Positions 1,996-33,264 of a stretch of DNA of 64,000 nt are shown in pieces. This stretch comes from a virus. The notes under the pieces were generated by a model, which was not told the origin of the DNA, searched no databases, and worked only from the letters and a program-made list of their open reading frames with translations. The stretch is taken from the IMG/VR virus record IMGVR_UViG_3300009709_000021, positions 1-64,000 of that record; one strand, given 5' to 3'. Position 1 is the first letter of the stretch. Each line of letters begins with the position of its first letter. The position numbers and the translations under genes were made by a program.

Positions 1996-3616
1996 GTCGG
2001 CAAAGCTAGAGAAAGCAAACAAAATTTATTATGATGCGTTAGCAGAGTCTATCGTCGGTAAGAAAGACGAAAAGAAAATCTACCGTACATACGAAGACTA
2101 CAATTTTGAACAGCTCCTTTGTTATGCAGGGTTAGACTGTATTGCCACGTCGGAACTTTTGGCGAATATGATGCCTGAAATCGCTAGAACACTCCCGCTG
2201 AGAGATACCGATGGTGGAATTGTCCATGCGCCGGCTATCATCGATGTAGCTGAGAAATGGGAAATGCCGGCATTTGAGTTCTTACTTGATATGGAGATTA
2301 CTGGTATCAAGTACGACTGCGACCGGAATCGTAAGATCTCTCTACAAATGGTAGAAGAGATTAGAGGCTTGGAAGAACTTATCTTTGAACAGATTGGAGT
2401 AAAAATCAATCTGGACTCTGGTACGGAAGTTGCCAAACTTCTTTATGACACATTAGGATTTGAACCTCCCTTCAAAACCAAGTCTGGAGATCCAGCAACG
2501 GATGGTACTGCGCTTCTTACTTTAGCTGGACTAGATCCACTGGCTCAGAAATATGTGGCTCCCGACCCGGAAAAACAGTTCTTAGCTTACATGGCTAAAC
2601 GCAGGGATATCAATTCTGTCCATAACACATTCATCAGATCATATATTGAAGATTTTGTGAAGCGTGACGGCCGGGTTCATCCTTCGTATAACATGATTGG
2701 AACTTCAGGATTTCGTATTTCCGGCGATAATCCAAACCTGTTACAATTACCACGTGCTAAACATGGTTATAACGTTCGGGAATGTTTTACGGTTGAAGAT
2801 GGATATGTATTCATTACATTAGACTTTTCTAGTGCTGAAGTAAAAGCATTGGCGAATCTGTGTAAAGATCCAAACATGATGAGTGCTATTGAGAGGGGGC
2901 TGGACTTCCACTCCTTCTCCGCTTCATTGATGCTTGGAATTCCGTATGAAGAATATGTTGCGATTTTGGCAGACAAGACTCATCCGGAATTCAAGCGACT
3001 CAAGCTGTATCGTCAAATTGCTAAAGTATTGACTTTCTCGCTAATTTATGGTTCTTCAGTTGGGGGTATTGCAATGCAATTGAATATGACCAAGGAAGAA
3101 GCGCAGAATCTGATGGATATCTACTTCAAGGCCTACCCGGGTGTGAAGAGGTTCATTGAAGAAAGCCATCAATTGGCAATGCTCAACAAGATTATTGTTA
3201 CGCCGTTTGGTCAACGTAAGCAGCAATATGGCGCAAACCAAGCATTCAAGTCAACAGCGGCGTATAATGCATCTTTGCGTAACTCGTCAAATATCCGGGT
3301 CCAGTCTCCAACTTCCACCATGGGATTAATGACGTTTACTGCTTTGGATCAGGAAATTCGTAAGTTCGGCGCACGTAGTATCTGTACAGTATATGACTCA
3401 ATTGAAATTGAATGTCCAGTTGAACATATGGCGAAATGCATTGAAGCAGGGTATTATTACATGAACGATTGGCCCGTCGAAGCATTTGACTGGCTAGAAC
3501 TTCCAGTAGGATGTGATTGTGAAATTGGTCCTAACTGGGGTCTATTAGAAGGCGTTCACCGTGGTACAACTCAGTTAGAATGTATGGAAATCATGGGTAA
3601 ACTATGGACGAGTTAA
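1988..3616 (+). CDS. DNA polymerase A C-terminal part (ExoIII plus polymerase domain); start may be 1964 or 1988
   Basis: YAGLD (ExoIII), TSGFRISGDNPNL, motif A DFSSAE, motif B RQIAKVLTFSLIYG, motif C VYDS. Confidence 0.9.
   Translation: MSESAKLEKANKIYYDALAESIVGKKDEKKIYRTYEDYNFEQLLCYAGLDCIATSELLANMMPEIARTLPLRDTDGGIVHAPAIIDVAEKWEMPAFEFLLDMEITGIKYDCDRNRKISLQMVEEIRGLEELIFEQIGVKINLDSGTEVAKLLYDTLGFEPPFKTKSGDPATDGTALLTLAGLDPLAQKYVAPDPEKQFLAYMAKRRDINSVHNTFIRSYIEDFVKRDGRVHPSYNMIGTSGFRISGDNPNLLQLPRAKHGYNVRECFTVEDGYVFITLDFSSAEVKALANLCKDPNMMSAIERGLDFHSFSASLMLGIPYEEYVAILADKTHPEFKRLKLYRQIAKVLTFSLIYGSSVGGIAMQLNMTKEEAQNLMDIYFKAYPGVKRFIEESHQLAMLNKIIVTPFGQRKQQYGANQAFKSTAAYNASLRNSSNIRVQSPTSTMGLMTFTALDQEIRKFGARSICTVYDSIEIECPVEHMAKCIEAGYYYMNDWPVEAFDWLELPVGCDCEIGPNWGLLEGVHRGTTQLECMEIMGKLWTS
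2934..2977 (+). repeat. 44-bp direct repeat copy 1 (inside polymerase)
   Basis: 42/44 identical to 4683-4726. Confidence 0.9.
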
Positions 3617-16769: not shown

Positions 16770-17993
16770 TGCCGGTTGTACCTCTGACAGGTATGTGGTG
16801 ACTCGGCCCGAATCCGAGATATAGACTGTAGTACCTAAATGTTATGGTAGTTGATTATATGACTGTTTTGTGGGTTTAATATGACTGTTAAGTCATACTA
16901 ATTGAGAGCATGTACCCTAAGGTGGGATTGATCCGGAGATACTAGCTAATCTTAGTATAGTCGGGGACTTGCCATAAGAAGTTCTCGTATAAATCCTTTG
17001 AAAGCAAATAGTCGGGTAATTGGTCCTGGCTTAGTAGCGCAAAGGTTGACCAATCGGAAACAGTCCGGTACCCCACCCCAGGTCCACTCATCGGCCTGGG
17101 GTGGCCATCTTCAAATCCAAGTTTTAGACTCGTTACCAGGTCTCTCACCCGGCGGGTGATACCATTTATTGGGAAAACAATGTCTAGAATTTGGTTGACC
17201 GCCGAGAATAGTACGGCTTCGAACATAAGAATACTCCGGGTCCGGAACCGGGGTAAATCCTGCCAGAAAAAGCTATAGATCTGTGGGCGTAGGGATCACT
17301 TTTCGAGAAGTTTAACAGGGTAATAGACTCTTCGCACTATGTATGGTTGAATACTCTGCCCAGGGGTGGAGGCTACAGGACCATGACGTCGGACGTGGTG
17401 AACCGCTGTTTCTTGCTTGTTAATATCATTCTTCGAAACAGAGCCGAAGTCTTCAAAACCGAGTTGTGACATGCGACTAGACAGCTTACTCAGAGACTCA
17501 GAGCCTCCATCGCGTGTGGCCTCATTCTGCTGGGCTTGGATGGCCATTGCTCACTTCCGCGAAAGCGAAGATGTGCCCCTGGGAGGTTGGCCGGTGGGAA
17601 TAGTCCACCAAACTTTTAAATCCATGTGTTAGAATGCGTGGGCCACATCTTGACGTAGTGCAAGTGCAACCCTTTAATCCGTACACAGGTTCTCTGGGTA
17701 CCGTAAGAATATTCTAGCAAATGGTTGACCGCAACGAATAGTGTTGCACCGAATTTTTCCTAGTCATGACGGCGTGGAGCCGACATACAGGCATTGATCC
17801 GCAACTATGATTAGGTTATAATTGACCTCCGGGAATAGTCCGGTCCTTACTGAATAAGTCGTTCCCTTAGGTATGGCAACAAAGCGCTCCCTATCCGGAC
17901 TAACTTGAGCCTAATAACTAAGGTTATGCTGACTGCCGGGAATAGTTCGGCACCCACCTCTCCACCTCGGGCCAAATCATCGGCTCGGGGTGG
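16770..17993 (+). ncRNA. Array of unassigned paralogous structured RNAs (six GGUUGACC / GAAUAGU-hairpin modules)
   Basis: Modules at 17044, 17193, 17585, 17723, 17822, 17930 with covarying stems; duplicated 32-nt hairpin at 17073 and 17962; no credible CDS. Confidence 0.75.
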
Positions 17994-22571: not shown

Positions 22572-22756
22572 TATGGTTGTAATTATTGCTTTAACTTTGC
22601 TTATCTTCTGCCTTCTCTGGATTGATAAAAAAATCACTTGGCTGATCTGGATGCACGAAATATACGGCGTTATCCTGATCTTGGCCGCAGGCGTTGATGC
22701 TGTCTTAATCGGCATTAAAGTTGCAAAGGTTGTAGGTTTGTTGTAGAATCCCCAAA

Positions 22757-22896
22757 GTCGTGGTGAAGTCGAGGCTTACTTCATAGGAACCGGCATCCTG
22801 GAGGTTCAAGTCCTCTCACTGCGTCCTCTATGGCGTAGTGTGGCGAAACTGGTAAACGCACTGGTAGTTAAGCGCGTCTTGATATTTGTTCCCGAC
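22757..22896 (+). ncRNA. Y RNA-like (YrlA-type) #1 with permuted tRNA module
   Basis: GTCG-TGGTG..TTACTTC..TTGTTCC-CGAC; T-arm GGAGG-TTCAAGT-CCTCT precedes Leu-like D-arm TGGCGAAACTGGTAAACGC. Confidence 0.8.
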
Positions 22897-22929
22897 CTTG
22901 GTATAATAACTTTGAGATAGAATTTGATT

Positions 22930-23058
22930 ACTCATGGTGTAGATAGGAAGTTCTTCTTTACCTGCAAATAAAGACCTTTGGGGTTCGATTCCCCTTCCAT
23001 CCAAATCAGGGGGTGGCCTGGGTGGAGGTTTCGACCGTCCTGTCGACTGTTCCTGAGT
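22930..23058 (+). ncRNA. Y RNA-like #2
   Basis: ACTCA-TGGTGTAG..GTTCTTC..TGTTCC-TGAGT; T-arm GGGG-TTCGATT-CCCC. Confidence 0.8.
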
Positions 23059-23071
23059 TTCTAATAAGTTA

Positions 23072-23154
23072 AGCGTGGTGTAGCAGCGAATGCGAATTTC
23101 GGTTACTTCATACTCGTAATATGGCTCGTAAAACCGGAAGCGATTGTTCCCGCT
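23072..23154 (+). ncRNA. Y RNA-like #3 (minimal)
   Basis: AGCG-TGGTGTAG..TTACTTC..TTGTTCC-CGCT. Confidence 0.75.
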
Positions 23155-23170
23155 CAACAAGGAGAAGGAA

Positions 23171-23551
23171 ATGTCTCAAAAGCTAGGATTTGTTGTGGTT
23201 CGTGCATCTAAGGTTGTTCTGCGTGCTCAGAAAGAAATTGATCGCATTGAAGCTATAAGAAAACAACAGTCTGAAAACTATGTGCTGAACACAATAGATA
23301 TATTGAATAAATCGTTTTTCAGAAAACTGTTTAGACGACCTGCGGCGACCCGTGAAGAAGCTCTAAAGTACATTGAGGAAGATGACTTCGATCGGTGGGA
23401 GTATTACGATCTAGCTTATCGTATGTCTGACAAAGAGGCAGGTTTGAAAAAACTGATCGATGTAGGTAGTGAACTGCTGAAAGATAGTAGCGTTGCAGAA
23501 ATGGAACTCGCCATCGAAGTAGCAGACTGGCTAGTGTTAAAGCCAGAATAA
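23171..23551 (+). CDS. Hypothetical protein inside Y RNA array
   Basis: AGGAG RBS. Confidence 0.65.
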   Translation: MSQKLGFVVVRASKVVLRAQKEIDRIEAIRKQQSENYVLNTIDILNKSFFRKLFRRPAATREEALKYIEEDDFDRWEYYDLAYRMSDKEAGLKKLIDVGSELLKDSSVAEMELAIEVADWLVLKPE

Positions 23552-23573
23552 GCCTGAGAAGGCTTGTGTAAGT

Positions 23574-23647
23574 CCTGTGGTGTAATGTTCGGTTACTTCT
23601 CAAACCTTTATTTGAACCCAAAATAGCCGGATGTGATTGTTCCCAGG
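23574..23647 (+). ncRNA. Y RNA-like #4 (minimal)
   Basis: CCTG-TGGTGTA..TTACTTC..TTGTTCC-CAGG. Confidence 0.75.
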
Positions 23648-23683
23648 CATTACCCAAGCCTTTTCGAATTCACTTGCATCGAA

Positions 23684-23825
23684 TAACCGTGGTGTAGAGA
23701 AGACTTACTTCATACCGGAGCGGCGGGTCACAGGTTCAAATCCTGCATTCCTCTTAATTGAGGAAGTAGCTCAGTCTGGCAGAGCAGCCGCAATAGAAAC
23801 GTCTTTTCGAATTTGTTCCCGGTTA
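23684..23825 (+). ncRNA. Y RNA-like #5 with permuted tRNA module
   Basis: TAACCG-TGGTGTAG..TTACTTC..TTGTTCC-CGGTTA; T-arm CAGG-TTCAAAT-CCTG, closed acceptor-like hairpin, then TAGCTCAGTCTGGCAGAGC. Confidence 0.85.
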
Positions 23826-23842
23826 AAGACTAGGAGAATTAA

Positions 23843-24085
23843 ATGAGTTATGATCGTCAGGACCAAATGAAACAGTTAGGGGCTTTACAAAAGAAGCTCA
23901 ATGACAGATTTGGCGACGTAATGGATCTGACCGGTGACTCCACTACTTTTGTGGCATACACTGATGTCTGGAGTCCTGTAGAAGGCGGGGTGTCGTTAAC
24001 GATTGATGGTGGACTCAGCATTGAAGATTTGGAATTTCTCTTGTTTCACCTCAAAGAGTTTGACAGGGAATTTCCGAAGAAGTAG
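23843..24085 (+). CDS. Hypothetical protein inside Y RNA array
   Basis: AGGAG RBS. Confidence 0.65.
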   Translation: MSYDRQDQMKQLGALQKKLNDRFGDVMDLTGDSTTFVAYTDVWSPVEGGVSLTIDGGLSIEDLEFLLFHLKEFDREFPKK

Positions 24086-24091
24086 AATAGA

Positions 24092-24231
24092 AAACTCGTG
24101 ATGTAGATAAGAAGTTCTTCTCCTGTTAAGAGGGTGGTCGGGGGTTCGAATCCCTCCGGTGGCAAATCAGGGCCGCCGTAGCTCAGTTGGTAGAGCACCT
24201 ACGATTCGTCTTATCGCTTGTTCCCGAGTTT
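24092..24231 (+). ncRNA. Y RNA-like #6 (YrlA-type)
   Basis: AAACTCG..GTTCTTC, CTGTTAA loop, T-arm TTCGAAT, CGGTGGC/GCCGCCG hairpin, D-arm TAGCTCAGTTGGTAGAGC, TTGTTCC-CGAGTTT. Confidence 0.85.
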
Positions 24232-24249
24232 GTAACACAGATTAGAAAA

Positions 24250-24312
24250 TTTCATGGTGTTGAGCAGAGATACTTCTCTGGTGATAAACTCTCTGTTCGT
24301 TTGTTCCTGAAA
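24250..24312 (+). ncRNA. Y RNA-like #7 (minimal)
   Basis: TTTCA-TGGTG..GAGCAGAGA/TCTCTGTTC..TTGTTCC-TGAAA. Confidence 0.75.
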
Positions 24313-24327
24313 ATTAAGGTGATAAAA

Positions 24328-25725
24328 ATGGCTAAAGAAACAAAATTGACTGCTATTGAGCAACTTCGTCGCGCAACTCTTTCAACCTTCTTGTGGGAAG
24401 GCAATTACACGGAAGACGGTGAATCGATCCAAAAGCGTATCGGTGATCTGATCAAAGTGTGCGATACGAAAGACGTTGCTGCTCTGGCAATCGAAGCTCG
24501 TGAAGAAATGCATCTTCGTTCTATCCCGTTGCTGTTGGTACGTGAACTGGCCCGTCGGCCAAAGTCAGGGGGCGTCATTAGTGAGACCCTTGCTAGGATT
24601 ATCCAACGTCCTGATGAACTGCACAAGTTCTTGGACCTGTATTGGAAGGACGGCAAGCAACCTCTGAGCGCCCAGGTCAAGAAAGGTCTTGCAGCAGCGC
24701 TGCAGAAATTCAATGCTTACAGCCTTGCCAAATATCGGCAGGGAGAAAAGGTTTCGGTACGTGACGTCATGTTCATGACCCACGCAACACCGAAAACTTC
24801 GTCAGGTAAACAAACGAGGTTTGAGCGCCAACAGGAACGTGAAACTGGCGTTGCGTTGGAACGTACGCCTGATGAGCTGCTGTTCAAACAAGTTGCAGAA
24901 GATACCCTTCCGACACCGGATACCTGGGAAGTTGCGTTGTCGGCCGGGGAAGGAAAGAAAGAAACCTTCGAACGTTTGTTGACGGATGGCAAGCTCGGTT
25001 ACATGGCGCTGATGCGTAATCTGCGTAACATGGCTGAAGCCGGCGTTCGTCAAGATCTAGTCGGCGACGCTCTTTTAGCCCTTCGTGGTGCAGACCAAGT
25101 CCTACCGTTCCGATTCTTCACTGCTGCTAAGCACGCTTCAGTTTATCGGATTTGGTTGGAGGAAGCGTTCATTGAGCATGCTAAGAAACTTCCTAAGTTG
25201 CCTGGTAAGACGGTCTTCGTGGTGGATGTTTCCGGTTCGATGGGTAGTATGGTTTCAGGTAAGTCAGAAGTGACCCGTGCTATCGCAGCATCATCGTTGG
25301 CAGCAATTGCCCGTGAACTTTGCGAAGAATCCGTGATATATGCAACGGCGGGCAGTGATCATGCTAAGACTCACAAGACAGCCCTTGTCCCGATGTCTCG
25401 TGGCATGACACTTGCGGAAGACATCTGGAAAATGTGTCATCCGTTGGGCGGTGGCGGTATCTTCTTGAATCAGGTCATGAAGTTCCTGGTTTCGGAAAAG
25501 ATTGAAAACGTCAGGCGTACCATTGTGTTGACGGATGAACAGGATTGCGGTGTCGGAGTTGATACTCCTGACAAAGCACCAACGCTTTCTGAACACAACT
25601 ACATTATGAATGTAGCTGCCTACTCGAATGGCATCGGGTATGGCAAGTGGACGAAGATCAATGGTTTTAGCGAGAATGTGTTGAAATACATCGCTGAACT
25701 TGAAGCTTCAAACGCTCGGCAGTAA
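24328..25725 (+). CDS. rsr: Ro60/Rsr TROVE plus vWA RNA-binding protein
   Basis: FLWE, RPDE, Y.LAKY, TWEVALS, ALMRNLRNM, LPFRF, MIDAS DVSGSM, LTDEQ; AAGGTGA RBS before ATG 24328. Confidence 0.9.
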   Translation: MAKETKLTAIEQLRRATLSTFLWEGNYTEDGESIQKRIGDLIKVCDTKDVAALAIEAREEMHLRSIPLLLVRELARRPKSGGVISETLARIIQRPDELHKFLDLYWKDGKQPLSAQVKKGLAAALQKFNAYSLAKYRQGEKVSVRDVMFMTHATPKTSSGKQTRFERQQERETGVALERTPDELLFKQVAEDTLPTPDTWEVALSAGEGKKETFERLLTDGKLGYMALMRNLRNMAEAGVRQDLVGDALLALRGADQVLPFRFFTAAKHASVYRIWLEEAFIEHAKKLPKLPGKTVFVVDVSGSMGSMVSGKSEVTRAIAASSLAAIARELCEESVIYATAGSDHAKTHKTALVPMSRGMTLAEDIWKMCHPLGGGGIFLNQVMKFLVSEKIENVRRTIVLTDEQDCGVGVDTPDKAPTLSEHNYIMNVAAYSNGIGYGKWTKINGFSENVLKYIAELEASNARQ

Positions 25726-25772
25726 TTTAAGGCGGGGGAGTCCCCCGCTTCGTTCATCTTTTGGGGAAAGAA

Positions 25773-31317: not shown

Positions 31318-33264
31318 ATGTCGAACCATCCTCACGCCGACGCTCTTTCCCAATTGTTCTCCGGCCGCGTTACGGACGGCGAAGTCATGTCGCTGCATGA
31401 GTATCTCGAACACTGCAAGACCAATTCGATGGCGTACGCTACGGCTCCGCAGCGTATGTTGAAGGCTATCGGCGAGCCGGAAGTCATCGATACGTCGAAG
31501 GACGAGCGACTCAGCCGGATCTTCATGAACCGCACGATCAAGCACTACCCATCGTTCCCGGGCTTCTACGGCATGGAAGAAGCCATCGAAGCCGTCGTCG
31601 GCTACTTCCGGCATGCTTCGCAAGGCCTGGAAGAAAAGCGCCAGATCCTGTACCTCCTGGGTCCGGTCGGCTCGGCCAAATCGTCGCTGGCGGAGCGTCT
31701 GAAGGAATTGATGGAAAAGGAGCCCATCTACGTCCTGACCTACAACGGTCAAACCAGTCCGATCTTCGAATCGCCGCTTGGCTTGTTCGCCACTCCCGAG
31801 CAGAAAGCCTACATCTCCGAAAACTTCAGCATTCCTCTGCACCGTCTGCGTGGTATCGCGTCGGGCTGGGCGCTGAAGCGTCTGGACGAATCCAACGGCG
31901 ATCTCACCAAGTTCTCGGTCACCAAGATGTACCCGCAGAAGCTGCGCAACATCTGCGTCATGAAGACGGAACCGGGTGACGAGAACAACCAGGACATCTC
32001 CTCGCTGGTCGGCAAAACCGACATCCGCAAGCTGGAGCTGTTCAGCCAGAACGACACCGACGCCTACAGCTACTCCGGCGGCCTGAACCGTACCACGCAA
32101 GGTCTGCTCGAATTCGTGGAAATGTTCAAGGCTCCGATCAAGGTGCTTCACCCGTTGTTGACGGCGACGCAGGAAAGCAACTACACCGGCACGGAAGCGA
32201 TTCCGGCGATTCCGTACGAAGGCACTGTCGTGGCCCACTCGAACGAGTCGGAATGGGAAAAGTTCAAGGGCAATCCGGACAACGCCGCGTTCATCGACCG
32301 GGTCTACATCGTCAAGGTGCCGTACTGCCGCCGGCTGAACGAGGAAGTCGAGATCTACAAGAAGCTCATCAACAGCTCGGAACTGGCCGGCCTGCCGATG
32401 GCTCCGAAGACGCTGGAATTCCTGGCGGAATCGGTGATCTCCAGTCGGCTGCGTCAACATGCGAATTCGACGAAGTTCTCGAAGATCCGTGTGTACAACG
32501 GCGAGGACATCCGCGAAAGCGACACTCGTGCGAAGTCCATCAACGAGTACCTCGAAGCAGCCGGCCTCGACGAAGGTTTCGAGGGCCTGTCGACGCGTTT
32601 CGCTTACAAGGTGCTGTCGAAGACGTTCAATTCGGACTCGGAAGAAATCTCGGCCGACCCGATTCGTCTGATTCTCACGCTCGAAGACTCGATCAAGCGT
32701 GAACAGTACGCGCCGGAAAAGCAGAACGAAATCCTGGCTTATATCCAGGAGCAGAAGGGTCGCTATCTCCAGTTCTTGGAGAAGGAGATTCAACAGGCAT
32801 ACGTCGAGTCCTACGGCGAGTTCGGTCAGAACATGTTCGACCGGTACATCCAGATGGCCGATTTCTGGATTCAGGAAAAAGATTTGAAGGATACCCAAAC
32901 GGGTCTGATCTTGAATCGTTCAAGCCTGAACACGGAACTGGAACGTCTAGAAAAACCGGCGGGTATCGTCAACACTCGGGATTTCCGTTCGGAAGTTGTC
33001 AACTTCGTTCTGCGCTTCCAAGCTCAGAATGGAGGCAAGAACCCGGCGTGGACGTCGTACTCGAAGTTGAAGGAAGTCATTCAGGCGAACATGTTCAGCA
33101 GCTTGAACGACGTTCTGCCGGTGATCTCGTTCGACACGAAACGCGACAGCGAAATCGCTGCCAAGCATGATGGTTTCGTGAAGCGCATGGGGGAACTCGG
33201 CTACACGCCGAAGCAAACTCGTGTGCTGGTCGAGTATTTCGTTCGCTCGAAGCACAGCAACTAA
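31318..33264 (+). CDS. prkA: PrkA/YeaG AAA+ serine protein kinase
   Basis: FYGMEE, Walker A GPVGSAKS, EPGDENNQDISSLVGK, LEFVEMFKAPIK, AHSNESEW. Confidence 0.97.
   Translation: MSNHPHADALSQLFSGRVTDGEVMSLHEYLEHCKTNSMAYATAPQRMLKAIGEPEVIDTSKDERLSRIFMNRTIKHYPSFPGFYGMEEAIEAVVGYFRHASQGLEEKRQILYLLGPVGSAKSSLAERLKELMEKEPIYVLTYNGQTSPIFESPLGLFATPEQKAYISENFSIPLHRLRGIASGWALKRLDESNGDLTKFSVTKMYPQKLRNICVMKTEPGDENNQDISSLVGKTDIRKLELFSQNDTDAYSYSGGLNRTTQGLLEFVEMFKAPIKVLHPLLTATQESNYTGTEAIPAIPYEGTVVAHSNESEWEKFKGNPDNAAFIDRVYIVKVPYCRRLNEEVEIYKKLINSSELAGLPMAPKTLEFLAESVISSRLRQHANSTKFSKIRVYNGEDIRESDTRAKSINEYLEAAGLDEGFEGLSTRFAYKVLSKTFNSDSEEISADPIRLILTLEDSIKREQYAPEKQNEILAYIQEQKGRYLQFLEKEIQQAYVESYGEFGQNMFDRYIQMADFWIQEKDLKDTQTGLILNRSSLNTELERLEKPAGIVNTRDFRSEVVNFVLRFQAQNGGKNPAWTSYSKLKEVIQANMFSSLNDVLPVISFDTKRDSEIAAKHDGFVKRMGELGYTPKQTRVLVEYFVRSKHSN

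What the first reader, a model, noticed from the sequence alone, without database searches (positions are those of the whole stretch)
22757..25725. Phage Ro60 with an expanded array of seven Y-RNA-like genes
Seen: seven elements share 5' TGRTG, a T(A/T)CTTC linker and 3' TGTTCC. Their terminal stems are different but complementary (GTCG/CGAC, ACTCA/TGAGT, AGCG/CGCT, CCTG/CAGG, TAACCG/CGGTTA, AAACTCG/CGAGTTT, TTTCA/TGAAA), and the upper stems also covary. Three carry full circularly permuted tRNA modules (T-arm, closed acceptor hairpin, D-arm), one has a T-arm only, and three are minimal. The array ends 15 nt before a TROVE/vWA gene. Established: bacterial Rsr binds Y RNAs, and YrlA RNAs mimic tRNA and occur in some phages, typically as one or a few per locus. 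Inference: seven diversified copies suggest a modular Ro60 RNP toolkit for RNA decay targeting, tRNA repair or decoying.
Basis: partly seen in the sequence, partly recalled or inferred. Interest (0 to 1): 0.85.

Follow-up and report, generated by a model that had tools for sequence, protein, structure and literature searches.

The report
Seven Y-RNA genes before phage Ro60
An uncultured phage carries seven small RNA genes that share one conserved docking stem, four of them with tRNA look-alike tops, just ahead of its gene for the RNA-binding ring protein Ro60. This is a large example of a widespread, poorly annotated form of the known Ro60/Y-RNA partnership, not a one-off.

Summary
Exactly seven elements (22757-24312, + strand) share stem-U-GG-UG(A/U)AG-upper stem-U(U/A)(A/C)CUUC ... 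UGUUCC-stem'. The array ends 15 nt before a 465-aa TROVE/vWA Ro60 gene (24328-25725).

A covariance model built from minimal copies finds all seven and nothing else in the 102-kb contig. Both helices covary across 57 copies from 17 loci.

E1, E5 and E6 carry circularly permuted tRNA bodies. E6, un-permuted in silico, reads as a full tRNA-Asn(GUU). E2 has a T arm, a sealed acceptor stem and a mini-hairpin. E3, E4 and E7 are minimal.

The "expanded array" reading holds only in part:
- The same handle family sits beside Ro60 in every related locus I checked.
- Caulobacter phage CcrColossus has 8 copies and a 43-kb Xanthomonas phage has 5.
- A motif-seeded sample of 69 IMG/VR loci has 1-7 copies (median 3).
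- Bacterial chromosomes show roughly 3-6 copies within 3 kb.

None reaches Rfam YrlA's threshold, so these RNAs go unannotated. The most likely reading is Ro60-docking Y RNAs with interchangeable heads. Their function (PNPase tether or tRNA decoy) is inferred, not shown. This scan has noted similar arrays on other DNA before.

The parts
22721..22749 (+). Promoter-like site (TTGCAA-17-TAGAAT, 9/12) ending 7 nt before E1
   Evidence: This is a consensus match only; the total number of such sites in the region is not above shuffles.
22757..22896 (+). E1: Y-RNA-like gene, 140 nt. Handle GUCG/CGAC. YrlA-type head with the anticodon-stem analogue ACCGG/CUGGU, a T arm, a sealed acceptor hairpin and a D arm.
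   Evidence: R1 25.6 bits. In one search the un-permuted body, closed with a filler loop, folds as a cloverleaf in ARAGORN.
22879..22907 (+). Promoter-like site (TTGATA-17-TATAAT, 11/12, extended TG) inside the 3' end of E1, reading into E2
22930..23058 (+). E2: Y-RNA-like gene, 129 nt. Handle ACUCA/UGAGU. Head has an anticodon-arm-like hairpin with an 8-nt loop, a T arm, a sealed 7-bp acceptor-like stem with a 17-nt loop, and a GGU-UUCG-ACC mini-hairpin in place of a D arm.
   Evidence: R1 29.9 bits. In one search there are weak matches to permuted tmRNA models (18 and 13 bits, far below threshold).
23072..23154 (+). E3: minimal Y-RNA-like gene, 83 nt. Handle AGCG/CGCU, with an enlarged 5' internal loop.
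   Evidence: R1 22.3 bits, E 0.006; the weakest copy.
23171..23551 (+). orfA: 126-aa orphan ORF with a strong Shine-Dalgarno sequence, interrupting the array
   Evidence: No credible Pfam, PHROG or NCBIfam match, no homologue in any related locus, no Atlas lead.
23574..23647 (+). E4: minimal Y-RNA-like gene, 74 nt. Handle CCUG/CAGG.
   Evidence: R1 56.6 bits.
23684..23825 (+). E5: Y-RNA-like gene, 142 nt. Handle UAACCG/CGGUUA. YrlA-type head with the anticodon-stem analogue GCGGC/GCCGC, a T arm, a sealed acceptor hairpin and a D arm.
   Evidence: R1 30.9 bits. In one search, Rfam YrlA scores 26.4 bits on 23722-23789.
23843..24085 (+). orfB: 80-aa orphan ORF with a strong Shine-Dalgarno sequence, interrupting the array
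   Evidence: no family and no homologue in related loci.
24060..24088 (+). Promoter-like site (TTGACA-17-TAGAAT, 11/12) ending 3 nt before E6. It could drive E6-E7-Ro60.
24092..24231 (+). E6: Y-RNA-like gene, 140 nt. Handle AAACUCG/CGAGUUU, with UGAUG in place of UGGUG. The head is a complete circular permutation of a tRNA-Asn(GUU), opened between the D arm and the anticodon arm, with the acceptor end sealed by AAAUCAGG.
   Evidence: R1 26.8 bits. In one search, Rfam YrlA scores 36.4 bits on 24133-24199. In one search, joining 24172-24197 to 24118-24164 gives an ARAGORN tRNA-Asn(gtt).
24250..24312 (+). E7: minimal Y-RNA-like gene, 63 nt. Handle UUUCA/UGAAA. It ends 15 nt before the Ro60 start codon.
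   Evidence: z -2.4; R1 69.8 bits.
24328..25725 (+). Ro60 homologue, 465 aa: TROVE HEAT-repeat ring plus a vWA domain with a DxSxS MIDAS motif
   Evidence: Pfam TROVE 55.6 bits against a cut-off of 23. PHROG 850 'RNA-binding protein' 114.6 bits over residues 46-461. Full-length match to the solved Thermus phage phiLo Ro60, 9KOP/9L5Y, E 2.8e-24. D300, S302 and S304 are invariant among 9 homologues.
25730..25760 (+). Intrinsic-terminator-like hairpin (9 bp, 7 G-C) with a T-rich tail, just after the Ro60 stop codon

Best explanation
The seven elements are genes for Y-type non-coding RNAs that partner with the phage's own Ro60 protein.

Each RNA closes with a bipartite handle. It has a variable terminal stem, an invariant bulged U, a GG:CC pair, an asymmetric internal loop (5' YG(A/U)A, 3' GNYUGUU), an 8-bp upper stem and a nearly invariant single-stranded U-A-C-U-U-C.

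I infer that the handle docks on the outer face of the Ro60 ring, as Y RNAs do on Xenopus, Deinococcus and Thermus-phage phiLo Ro60. The 5' strand GGYG(A/U)AG matches the published YrlA Ro60-site motif GNCGAAN0-1G, apart from C-to-U and A-to-U variants.

The handle presents interchangeable heads:
- Open loops in E3, E4 and E7.
- Sealed, circularly permuted tRNA bodies in E1, E5 and E6.
- A T-arm/acceptor body in E2.

The locus probably runs as two or three transcripts that end at the terminator after Ro60 and are then cut into 63-142-nt RNAs.

By analogy with the Deinococcus and phiLo Ro60-Y RNA-PNPase complexes, the heads most likely couple or gate Ro60 to host RNA enzymes. The phage itself encodes no PNPase or RNA repair enzyme. 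The tRNA-shaped heads would engage tRNA-binding host factors.

Shown here: the family, its structure, and its tight linkage to this Ro60 clade. Inferred: Ro60 binding, processing and function.
For: - Count and specificity: seven copies in 1.6 kb against about 0.3 expected by chance in the whole genome. R1 finds all seven and nothing else in 102 kb.
- Structure: across 57 copies from 17 loci, 93.6% of cells form standard pairs, against 60.6% in shuffles and at most 54% when partners are slid. All 15 pairs carry compensatory changes.
- Conservation: the bulged U is present in 56/57 copies, G11 in 57/57, and U26, C28, U30 and C31 of UACUUC in 56-57/57.
- Linkage, protein to RNA: 16 of the 17 Ro60 loci searched with R1 (13 IMG/VR relatives, 40-49% identity, plus four named phages) have R1 copies beside the gene on the same strand. 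The exception is cut at the start of its Ro60 gene.
- Linkage, RNA to protein: of 80 IMG/VR loci fetched only by the 22-nt RNA motif, 63 hold a TROVE gene in the fetched stretch, next to the RNA matches where I compared coordinates.
- Clade specificity: 19 of 20 sampled bacterial Ro60 loci also have the arrays. Three phages with more distant Ro60s have none, only weak YrlA matches. This fits co-evolution of handle and protein.
- tRNA mimicry of YrlA type.
- Protein identity: a full-length homologue of phiLo Ro60, which binds two upstream Y-like RNAs and host PNPase in vitro (PMC12135203).
- Published precedent: YrlA next to Ro60 on the same strand, including in CcrColossus and mycobacteriophages (PMC4201824).
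Against: - There are no expression, end-mapping or binding data for this uncultured phage.
- No element reaches the Rfam YrlA gathering score (best 36.4 against 69 bits). Rfam Y_RNA gives nothing at E up to 10.
- It is unresolved which conserved part contacts Ro60. In related phage copies Rfam's YrlA model aligns its first helix to the upper stem and its AUGCU loop to UUACU, and leaves the lower module outside the model.
- Single-sequence folding z-scores are modest, from -2.4 to +0.4.
- The covariation alignment was fitted to the model.
- Promoter-like sites are no more numerous than in shuffles.
- The functional analogy to PNPase tethering rests on two experimental systems with different Y RNAs.
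Confidence: 0.8

Rival explanations
1. Decoy or sponge reading. The tRNA-shaped heads are the active part. They are sealed, exonuclease-resistant tRNA mimics, some with true anticodon loops such as the Asn GUU loop of E6. They would soak up host anticodon nucleases or other tRNA-directed defence or modification enzymes. Ro60 would serve mainly to stabilise or position them. This competes with the PNPase-tether reading at the level of function, not identity.
For: - Un-permuted E6 is a full tRNA-Asn(GUU) with loop CUGUUAA.
- Across the family, 83 of 271 distinct tRNA-type heads carry a hairpin with a 7-nt loop, U at position 2 and a purine at position 6, just 5' of the T arm. Shuffles give 7.4 on average and 15 at most.
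- These loops carry at least 22 different triplets.
- The locus lies in the phage's tRNA region.
- In Salmonella, rsr-yrlBA is part of an operon induced by damaged tRNAs (PMC7790460).
Against: - Three of the seven RNAs here, and many in relatives, have no tRNA-like part yet keep the handle.
- E1 and E5 have no anticodon loop at all.
- No nuclease target is known for this host.
- Chromosomal bacterial loci have the same arrays, which fits housekeeping RNA surveillance better than anti-defence.
Confidence: 0.2
2. The elements are cis-acting parts of the Ro60 operon, such as processing sites, attenuators or autoregulatory leaders that Ro60 binds to control its own translation. They would not be stable trans-acting RNAs.
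For: - E7 ends 15 nt before the Ro60 ATG, so its 3' stem abuts the ribosome-binding site.
- Every copy is on the Ro60 strand and most lie upstream of the gene.
- There are no individual terminators between units.
Against: - Up to eight diversified copies with elaborate tRNA-like heads are far more than a leader needs.
- In L008 two copies lie downstream of Ro60.
- Two unrelated ORFs sit inside this array.
- In relatives the last unit is usually 75-110 nt from the start codon.
- Homologous YrlA and Yrl RNAs are stable trans-acting species in Salmonella, Mycobacterium and the phiLo system (PMC4201824, PMC12135203).
Confidence: 0.07
3. The tRNA-like units are permuted or split tRNA genes that mature into working tRNAs, or are decayed tRNA-gene debris. 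The shared flanks would be tRNA-processing signals.
For: - E6 contains every tRNA part.
- The equivalent unit in CcrColossus is annotated as tRNA-Gln.
- Mycobacterial YrlA is cut by RNase P and receives CCA (PMC4201824).
Against: - ARAGORN and Rfam's tRNA model at its threshold call no tRNA at any of the seven native sequences.
- The acceptor ends are sealed by loops, with no CCA.
- Three units have no tRNA part.
- The handle covaries and is conserved across dozens of distinct phage and bacterial loci, which debris would not be.
- No ligase is encoded on the contig.
Confidence: 0.03

Closest known systems
YrlA / YrlB Y RNAs with bacterial and phage Ro60 (Rsr); Rfam RF02553; Chen et al. 2014, PMC4201824
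   Same: - The genes lie next to Ro60 on the same strand.
- The 5' and 3' ends pair into a stem that carries a GNCGAA-like motif (here GGYG(A/U)AG).
- The head is a tRNA mimic with a T arm, a sealed acceptor stem and a D arm, attached through the anticodon-stem position (E1, E5).
- Minimal partners without a tRNA body exist, like YrlB.
- CcrColossus, which Chen et al. list as YrlA-bearing, carries the same handle family.
   Different: - No copy reaches the RF02553 threshold (best 36.4 against 69 bits here; 37-52 bits in relatives).
- The lower helix with its bulged U and GG:CC, and the near-invariant UACUUC, are not part of the Rfam model.
- Arrays of 3-8 copies are usual, against about 1.3 YrlA per genome reported (355 in 276 genomes).
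- E6-type heads are opened between the D arm and the anticodon arm and keep a true anticodon loop.
Thermus phage phiLo Ro60 with Yrl1 and Yrl2 (PMC12135203; PDB 9KOP, 9L5Y)
   Same: - It is the closest solved protein (E 2.8e-24, full length).
- It is a phage Ro60 with Y-like RNAs just upstream.
- There is experimental evidence for RNA binding and for a complex with host PNPase.
- That phage also lacks its own PNPase.
   Different: - It has two RNAs, found through CGAA motifs, and no tRNA-like heads are described.
- Here there are seven RNAs with UGAA or UGUA in place of CGAA, and four have tRNA-like heads.
Deinococcus radiodurans Rsr-Yrn1-PNPase (RYPER) and metazoan Ro60-Y RNA particles
   Same: - The architecture is a terminal bulged helix as the Ro60 site plus a variable effector module.
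- Several different Y RNAs serve one Ro60. Vertebrates have 2-4, and four small RNAs lie upstream of D. radiodurans rsr (PMC4201824).
   Different: - There is no detectable sequence or covariance-model similarity to Rfam Y_RNA.
- Copy number is higher here.
- Here the RNAs are phage-encoded.

Membership tests
Y RNA class (Ro60-partner RNAs) | Encoded close to a Ro60/TROVE gene and on the same strand (Chen et al. used 4 kb) | tested here: met
   All seven lie within 1.6 kb upstream of the TROVE gene on the + strand. The same holds in related phage and bacterial loci.
Y RNA class (Ro60-partner RNAs) | The 5' and 3' ends pair into a stem with a bulge and a conserved 5'-strand Ro60 motif (bacterial GNCGAAN0-1G) | tested here: inconclusive
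   The stem, the bulged U and the covariation are shown. The motif is GGUGAAG in E1, GGUGUAG in E2, E3 and E5, GAUGUAG in E6, and GGUGUAA or GGUGUUG in E4 and E7. That is one or more changes from GNCGAAG. Relatives do have exact GGCGAAG. Which part contacts Ro60 is unresolved.
Y RNA class (Ro60-partner RNAs) | Physically bound by Ro60 in cells | not testable with these tools
   This needs co-purification or gel shifts.
YrlA (Rfam RF02553) | Score at or above the curated gathering threshold of 69 bits | tested here: not met
   The best scores are 36.4 bits (E6 core) and 26.4 bits (E5 core). The other five elements have no YrlA match at E up to 10.
YrlA (Rfam RF02553) | tRNA-like domain with a T arm, a sealed acceptor-like stem and a D arm | tested here: met
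   Met for E1, E5 and E6. Partly met for E2, which has no D arm. Absent in E3, E4 and E7.
Ro60 / TROVE protein | TROVE domain above the Pfam cut-off and full-length similarity to a solved Ro60 ring | tested here: met
   TROVE scores 55.6 bits against a cut-off of 23. The match to 9KOP has E 2.8e-24 over residues 18-460.
Ro60 / TROVE protein | C-terminal vWA domain with a MIDAS DxSxS motif | tested here: met
   DVSGSM is present, and D300, S302 and S304 are invariant in 9 homologues. Pfam VWA_2 itself is sub-threshold at 17.1 against 27 bits.
tmRNA (considered for E2) | tmRNA model score above threshold, a tag reading frame, and detection by ARAGORN | tested here: not met
   beta_tmRNA scores 18.2 against 84 bits and permuted tmRNA 12.9 against 47 bits. 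ARAGORN reports no tmRNA. The T-arm plus GGUUUCGAC combination occurs in no other handle-family element among the fetched loci; three other matches look like chance.
Functional tRNA gene (considered for E1, E5, E6) | Contiguous cloverleaf with a free acceptor end | tested here: not met
   ARAGORN and Rfam's tRNA model at its threshold call none at the native sequences. E6 becomes a tRNA-Asn only after in-silico re-permutation with CCA added.

The most novel reading that the evidence does not exclude
The heads form a library of sealed, circularly permuted tRNAs with genuine anticodon loops of many identities. E6 is Asn GUU, and relatives show Thr, Ser, Leu, Ile, Gln, His and Asp among others. 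These would be displayed on Ro60 as nuclease-resistant baits or sensors for host tRNA-targeting defence nucleases or tRNA-modifying enzymes. Array size would then reflect how many host tRNA-directed activities a phage must counter.
Probability: 0.15. Interest if true: 0.85.

Novelty: new variant of a known kind. Interest (0 to 1): 0.5.

Why it matters
Ro60/Y-RNA particles are conserved from bacteria to humans, yet their bacterial and viral functions are still poorly understood.

This locus and its relatives show that one large Ro60 clade, in phages and in bacterial chromosomes, is normally accompanied by rows of 2-8 RNAs. The RNAs share a clade-specific docking handle and carry interchangeable heads. 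Current RNA databases miss them, or genome annotations call them tRNAs.

The consequences are practical:
- There is a defined consensus to mutate: the bulged U, GG:CC, G11 and UACUUC.
- There is a minimal 63-nt RNA (E7) for binding and structural work.
- There are cultured systems, CcrColossus on Caulobacter and 43-kb Xanthomonas phages, where the function of multi-RNA Ro60 particles can be tested genetically.

The specific claim that this phage is exceptional does not hold.

Tried and rejected
- Rfam at gathering threshold over the window found only five ordinary tRNAs. At E up to 10, YrlA matched only the cores of E6 and E5, and Y_RNA did not match at all.
- BLAST hits of E6 to mycobacteriophages Myrna and Phabba lie across two adjacent tRNA genes in a tRNA array. 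They are not Y RNAs, so I dropped them.
- The tmRNA-like features of E2 are a G3:U70 pair, an A discriminator and GGUUUCGAC. Scores are far below threshold and the combination recurs in no other handle-family element, so I treat it as probable coincidence.
- orfA and orfB have no credible Pfam, PHROG or NCBIfam match, no homologue in any related locus, and no usable ESM Atlas lead. They are not conserved partners of the array.
- RtcB, Rnl2-type RNA ligase, CCA-adding enzyme, the RNase PH/PNPase domain and a PNK-type kinase are absent from the 102-kb contig, which is 77% complete. The only hit is a 13-bit P-loop match.
- R1 finds nothing beside the more distant Ro60 genes of Gordonia phage Neville, Rhizobium phage TM30 and crAss001, so the handle is clade-specific and not universal.
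- My own regex scanner was less sensitive than the covariance model (6 of 7 here), so I used it only as a cross-check.
- The Annual Review on bacterial Ro60 (PMC10870794) and the supplementary tables of Chen et al. 2014 are not held, so I could not check published per-phage YrlA counts.


Full report
**What is in the window**

The window is the first 64 kb of a 102,182-bp IMG/VR phage contig, estimated 77% complete. The phage is tailed and carries a DNA polymerase, ribonucleotide reductase, NAMPT, tail spikes and seven tRNA genes.

Between 22757 and 24312 on the + strand lie seven elements:
- E1 22757-22896
- E2 22930-23058
- E3 23072-23154
- E4 23574-23647
- E5 23684-23825
- E6 24092-24231
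- E7 24250-24312

A simple descriptor (TGRTG, then TGTTCC 30-220 nt later, with at least 4 complementary flanking bases) finds exactly these seven in the window and none on the minus strand. Shuffled genomes give 0.3 hits on average over both strands of all 102 kb.

E7 ends 15 nt before the ATG (24328) of a 465-aa protein. That protein has a TROVE domain (55.6 bits against a cut-off of 23) and a DVSGSM MIDAS motif. Its best solved relative, over its full length, is the Ro60 of Thermus phage phiLo (9KOP, E 2.8e-24).

Two orphan ORFs with good ribosome-binding sites interrupt the array: orfA (126 aa, 23171-23551) and orfB (80 aa, 23843-24085). They have no family and no counterpart in any related locus.

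**The shared structure is real**

Every element folds with the same closing architecture. In order it has:
- a terminal stem of 4-7 bp that differs in sequence between copies;
- a bulged U;
- a GG:CC pair (GA:CC in E6);
- an asymmetric internal loop;
- an upper stem;
- the single-stranded motif U(U/A)(A/C)CUUC.

I built covariance model R1 from E4, E7 and five minimal copies from related phages, with 15 pairs given by hand. R1 recovers all seven window copies. It finds nothing else in the window or in the remaining 38 kb of the contig.

On 57 copies from 17 loci, 93.6% of pair cells are standard pairs. Column shuffles give 60.6% and slid partners give at most 54%. All 15 pairs show changes on both sides. 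The alignment was fitted to the model, which favours it, but the size of the effect and the free variation of the terminal stems make chance untenable.

The most conserved positions are unpaired. The bulged U is present in 56/57 copies and G11 in 57/57. Within UACUUC, U26, C28, U30 and C31 are present in 56-57/57. On the 3' side the conserved stretch is G-N-Y-U-G-U-U-C-C.

**The heads**

E1 and E5 are of the classical YrlA type. A 5-bp anticodon-stem analogue (ACCGG/CUGGU in E1, GCGGC/GCCGC in E5) leads to a variable loop, a T arm, an acceptor stem sealed by a loop, and a D arm.

- Rfam YrlA matches the E5 core at 26.4 bits.
- Re-joined E1 folds as a cloverleaf in ARAGORN.

E6 is different. 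It is opened between the D arm and the anticodon arm and keeps a 5-bp stem with loop CUGUUAA.

- Joining 24172-24197 to 24118-24164 (with CCA added by me) gives an ARAGORN tRNA-Asn(GUU) with all four arms.
- Rfam YrlA gives 36.4 bits on the E6 core.

E2 is a paralogue of E6. They share GUAGAUA(A/G)GAAGUUCUUCU and AAAUCAGGG. E2 has an 8-nt loop on the first hairpin, a T arm, a sealed 7-bp acceptor-like stem and a GGU-UUCG-ACC mini-hairpin in place of a D arm.

E3, E4 and E7 have only a loop or a small hairpin.

**Link to Ro60**

Going from protein to RNA, thirteen IMG/VR relatives of the protein (40-49% identity) and four named phages were searched with R1. All but one had R1 copies beside the gene on the same strand. 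The exception, L014, is truncated at the Ro60 start.

By my rough estimate fewer than ten are expected by chance.
- Of the 80 loci fetched, 69 have R1 copies.
- 63 of the 80 encode a TROVE protein in the fetched stretch, next to the RNA matches where I compared coordinates.

Nineteen of twenty sampled bacterial loci encoding a 40-48% identical Ro60 also carry R1 copies upstream. They include Bradyrhizobium, Caulobacter, Acidobacteriota, Moraxella and Desulfococcaceae. None reaches the Rfam YrlA threshold.

Three phages with more distant Ro60s (Gordonia Neville, Rhizobium TM30, crAss001) have no R1 match. They show only sub-threshold YrlA matches. Handle type therefore tracks protein clade, as expected for direct partners. 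Binding itself is inferred.

**Is seven unusual?**

Only mildly. R1 counts, which are lower bounds, are:

| Source | Copies |
|---|---|
| This window | 7 |
| Caulobacter phage CcrColossus | 8 |
| Xanthomonas phage MET23-P3 (43 kb) | 5 |
| 12 close IMG/VR relatives | 1-4 |
| 69 motif-seeded IMG/VR loci | 1-7, median 3 |
| Bacterial loci, within 3 kb | roughly 3-6 |

In CcrColossus, one unit is annotated as tRNA-Gln and the rest are unannotated. My own regex cross-check gives one of the close relatives, L012, a fifth copy. Among the motif-seeded loci, only L072 reaches 7.

Chen et al. 2014 reported 355 YrlA-like RNAs in 276 genomes, including 22 phages and CcrColossus (PMC4201824). The phiLo paper describes two (PMC12135203). 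I found no paper describing rows of this length or this handle. I could not read the 2020 Annual Review or Chen's supplementary tables.

Earlier notes of this scan, on other DNA, reached the same view: rows of about 3-8 Y-type RNAs are the usual layout beside phage Ro60 genes. My counts agree, on data I gathered independently.

**Relation to YrlA**

The 5' strand GGYG(A/U)AG fits the published motif GNCGAAN0-1G. Some relatives match exactly (GGCGAAG). The window copies carry U for C and mostly U for the first A.

In related phage copies, however, Rfam's model aligns its first helix to the upper stem and its AUGCU loop to UUACU, and it deletes its second helix. So the correspondence of parts, and which part Ro60 touches, is not settled. 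By architecture (helix, asymmetric loop, helix, junction, tRNA body) I favour the lower module as the Ro60 site and UACUUC as a second contact.

**Mechanism**

There are promoter-like sites just before E1, E2 and E6 (9/12, 11/12 and 11/12 matches) and a strong terminator after Ro60. These suggest two or three transcripts that are processed into small RNAs. The promoter count is not above chance.

The contig encodes no PNPase, RtcB, Rnl2-type ligase, CCA-adding enzyme or credible kinase. Any enzymatic partner must therefore be host-encoded, as in the phiLo system.

My best reading is a set of Ro60 particles that differ in their RNA head. Open-loop heads would act as simple gates or tethers. tRNA-shaped heads would recruit tRNA-binding factors.

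A family-wide observation bears on the rival decoy reading. Of 271 distinct tRNA-type heads, 83 carry an anticodon-like hairpin (7-nt loop, U33, R37) directly before the T arm. Shuffles give 7.4. These loops carry at least 22 different triplets.

**Verdict**

This is a genuine Y-RNA array with a phage Ro60. It belongs to a handle subfamily that databases miss. The array size is at the upper end of what turns out to be the normal range. It is a new variant of a known kind and of moderate interest.

Noticed in passing
window 22930-23058 (E2), core 22979-23040: The acceptor-like stem of E2 (GGGUGGA/UCCAUCC) has a G:U pair at the third position and is followed by an A. The next segment, GGUUUCGAC, resembles the D-loop analogue of tmRNA. 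Rfam's permuted tmRNA models match weakly (18 and 13 bits). The combination occurs in no other handle-family element among more than 200 fetched loci, so it is probably coincidence.
   Followed up: partly
L016 3113-3275 (Caulobacter phage CcrColossus, JX100810.1): The feature annotated as tRNA-Gln (locus 3116-3183) lies inside one of eight R1-type Y-RNA units upstream of the TROVE gene. Part of that unit was read as a tRNA. Two annotated 'terminators' also lie in or beside this array.
   Followed up: partly
all fetched loci; window E6 24118-24134: About 30% of tRNA-type heads in this handle family keep an anticodon-arm mimic with U33 and R37 and many different triplets (GUU, UGU, GCU, CAG, GAU and others). 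These heads are whole permuted tRNAs and not just T/D/acceptor bodies.
   Followed up: partly
window 23171-23551 and 23843-24085: Two orphan ORFs (126 and 80 aa) with strong ribosome-binding sites sit inside the RNA array. In every related locus where I looked at the spacing, the units follow one another closely. The ORFs look like insertions, and their function is unknown.
   Followed up: yes
L021 7269-7735 (Brevundimonas phage Kikimora) and L018 1362-1665 (crAss-like phage cr106_1): Both phages carry a tmRNA gene within 2-4 kb of their Ro60 gene. In Kikimora it is a permuted tmRNA (57.7 bits against a threshold of 47). In cr106_1 it is annotated as SsrA. tRNA genes lie in the same neighbourhoods, which suggests RNA islands.
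   Followed up: no
window 31318-33264: A 648-aa protein matches PHROG 22605 strongly. It is 51-57% identical to a protein annotated YeaG in Enterobacter phage LAU1, and to proteins of huge uncultured phages and of Ralstonia jumbo phage RsoM2USA. In Thermus phages the more distant relatives are labelled serine kinase or AAA ATPase.
   Followed up: no
window 16770-17993 and contig about 92.9-98.9 kb: First-stage notes on this genome report a second array of small RNA-like units (TTGACC plus a hairpin capped by GAATAGT) and a ubiquitin-like conjugation cassette. I did not examine either. R1 does not match the first array.
   Followed up: no
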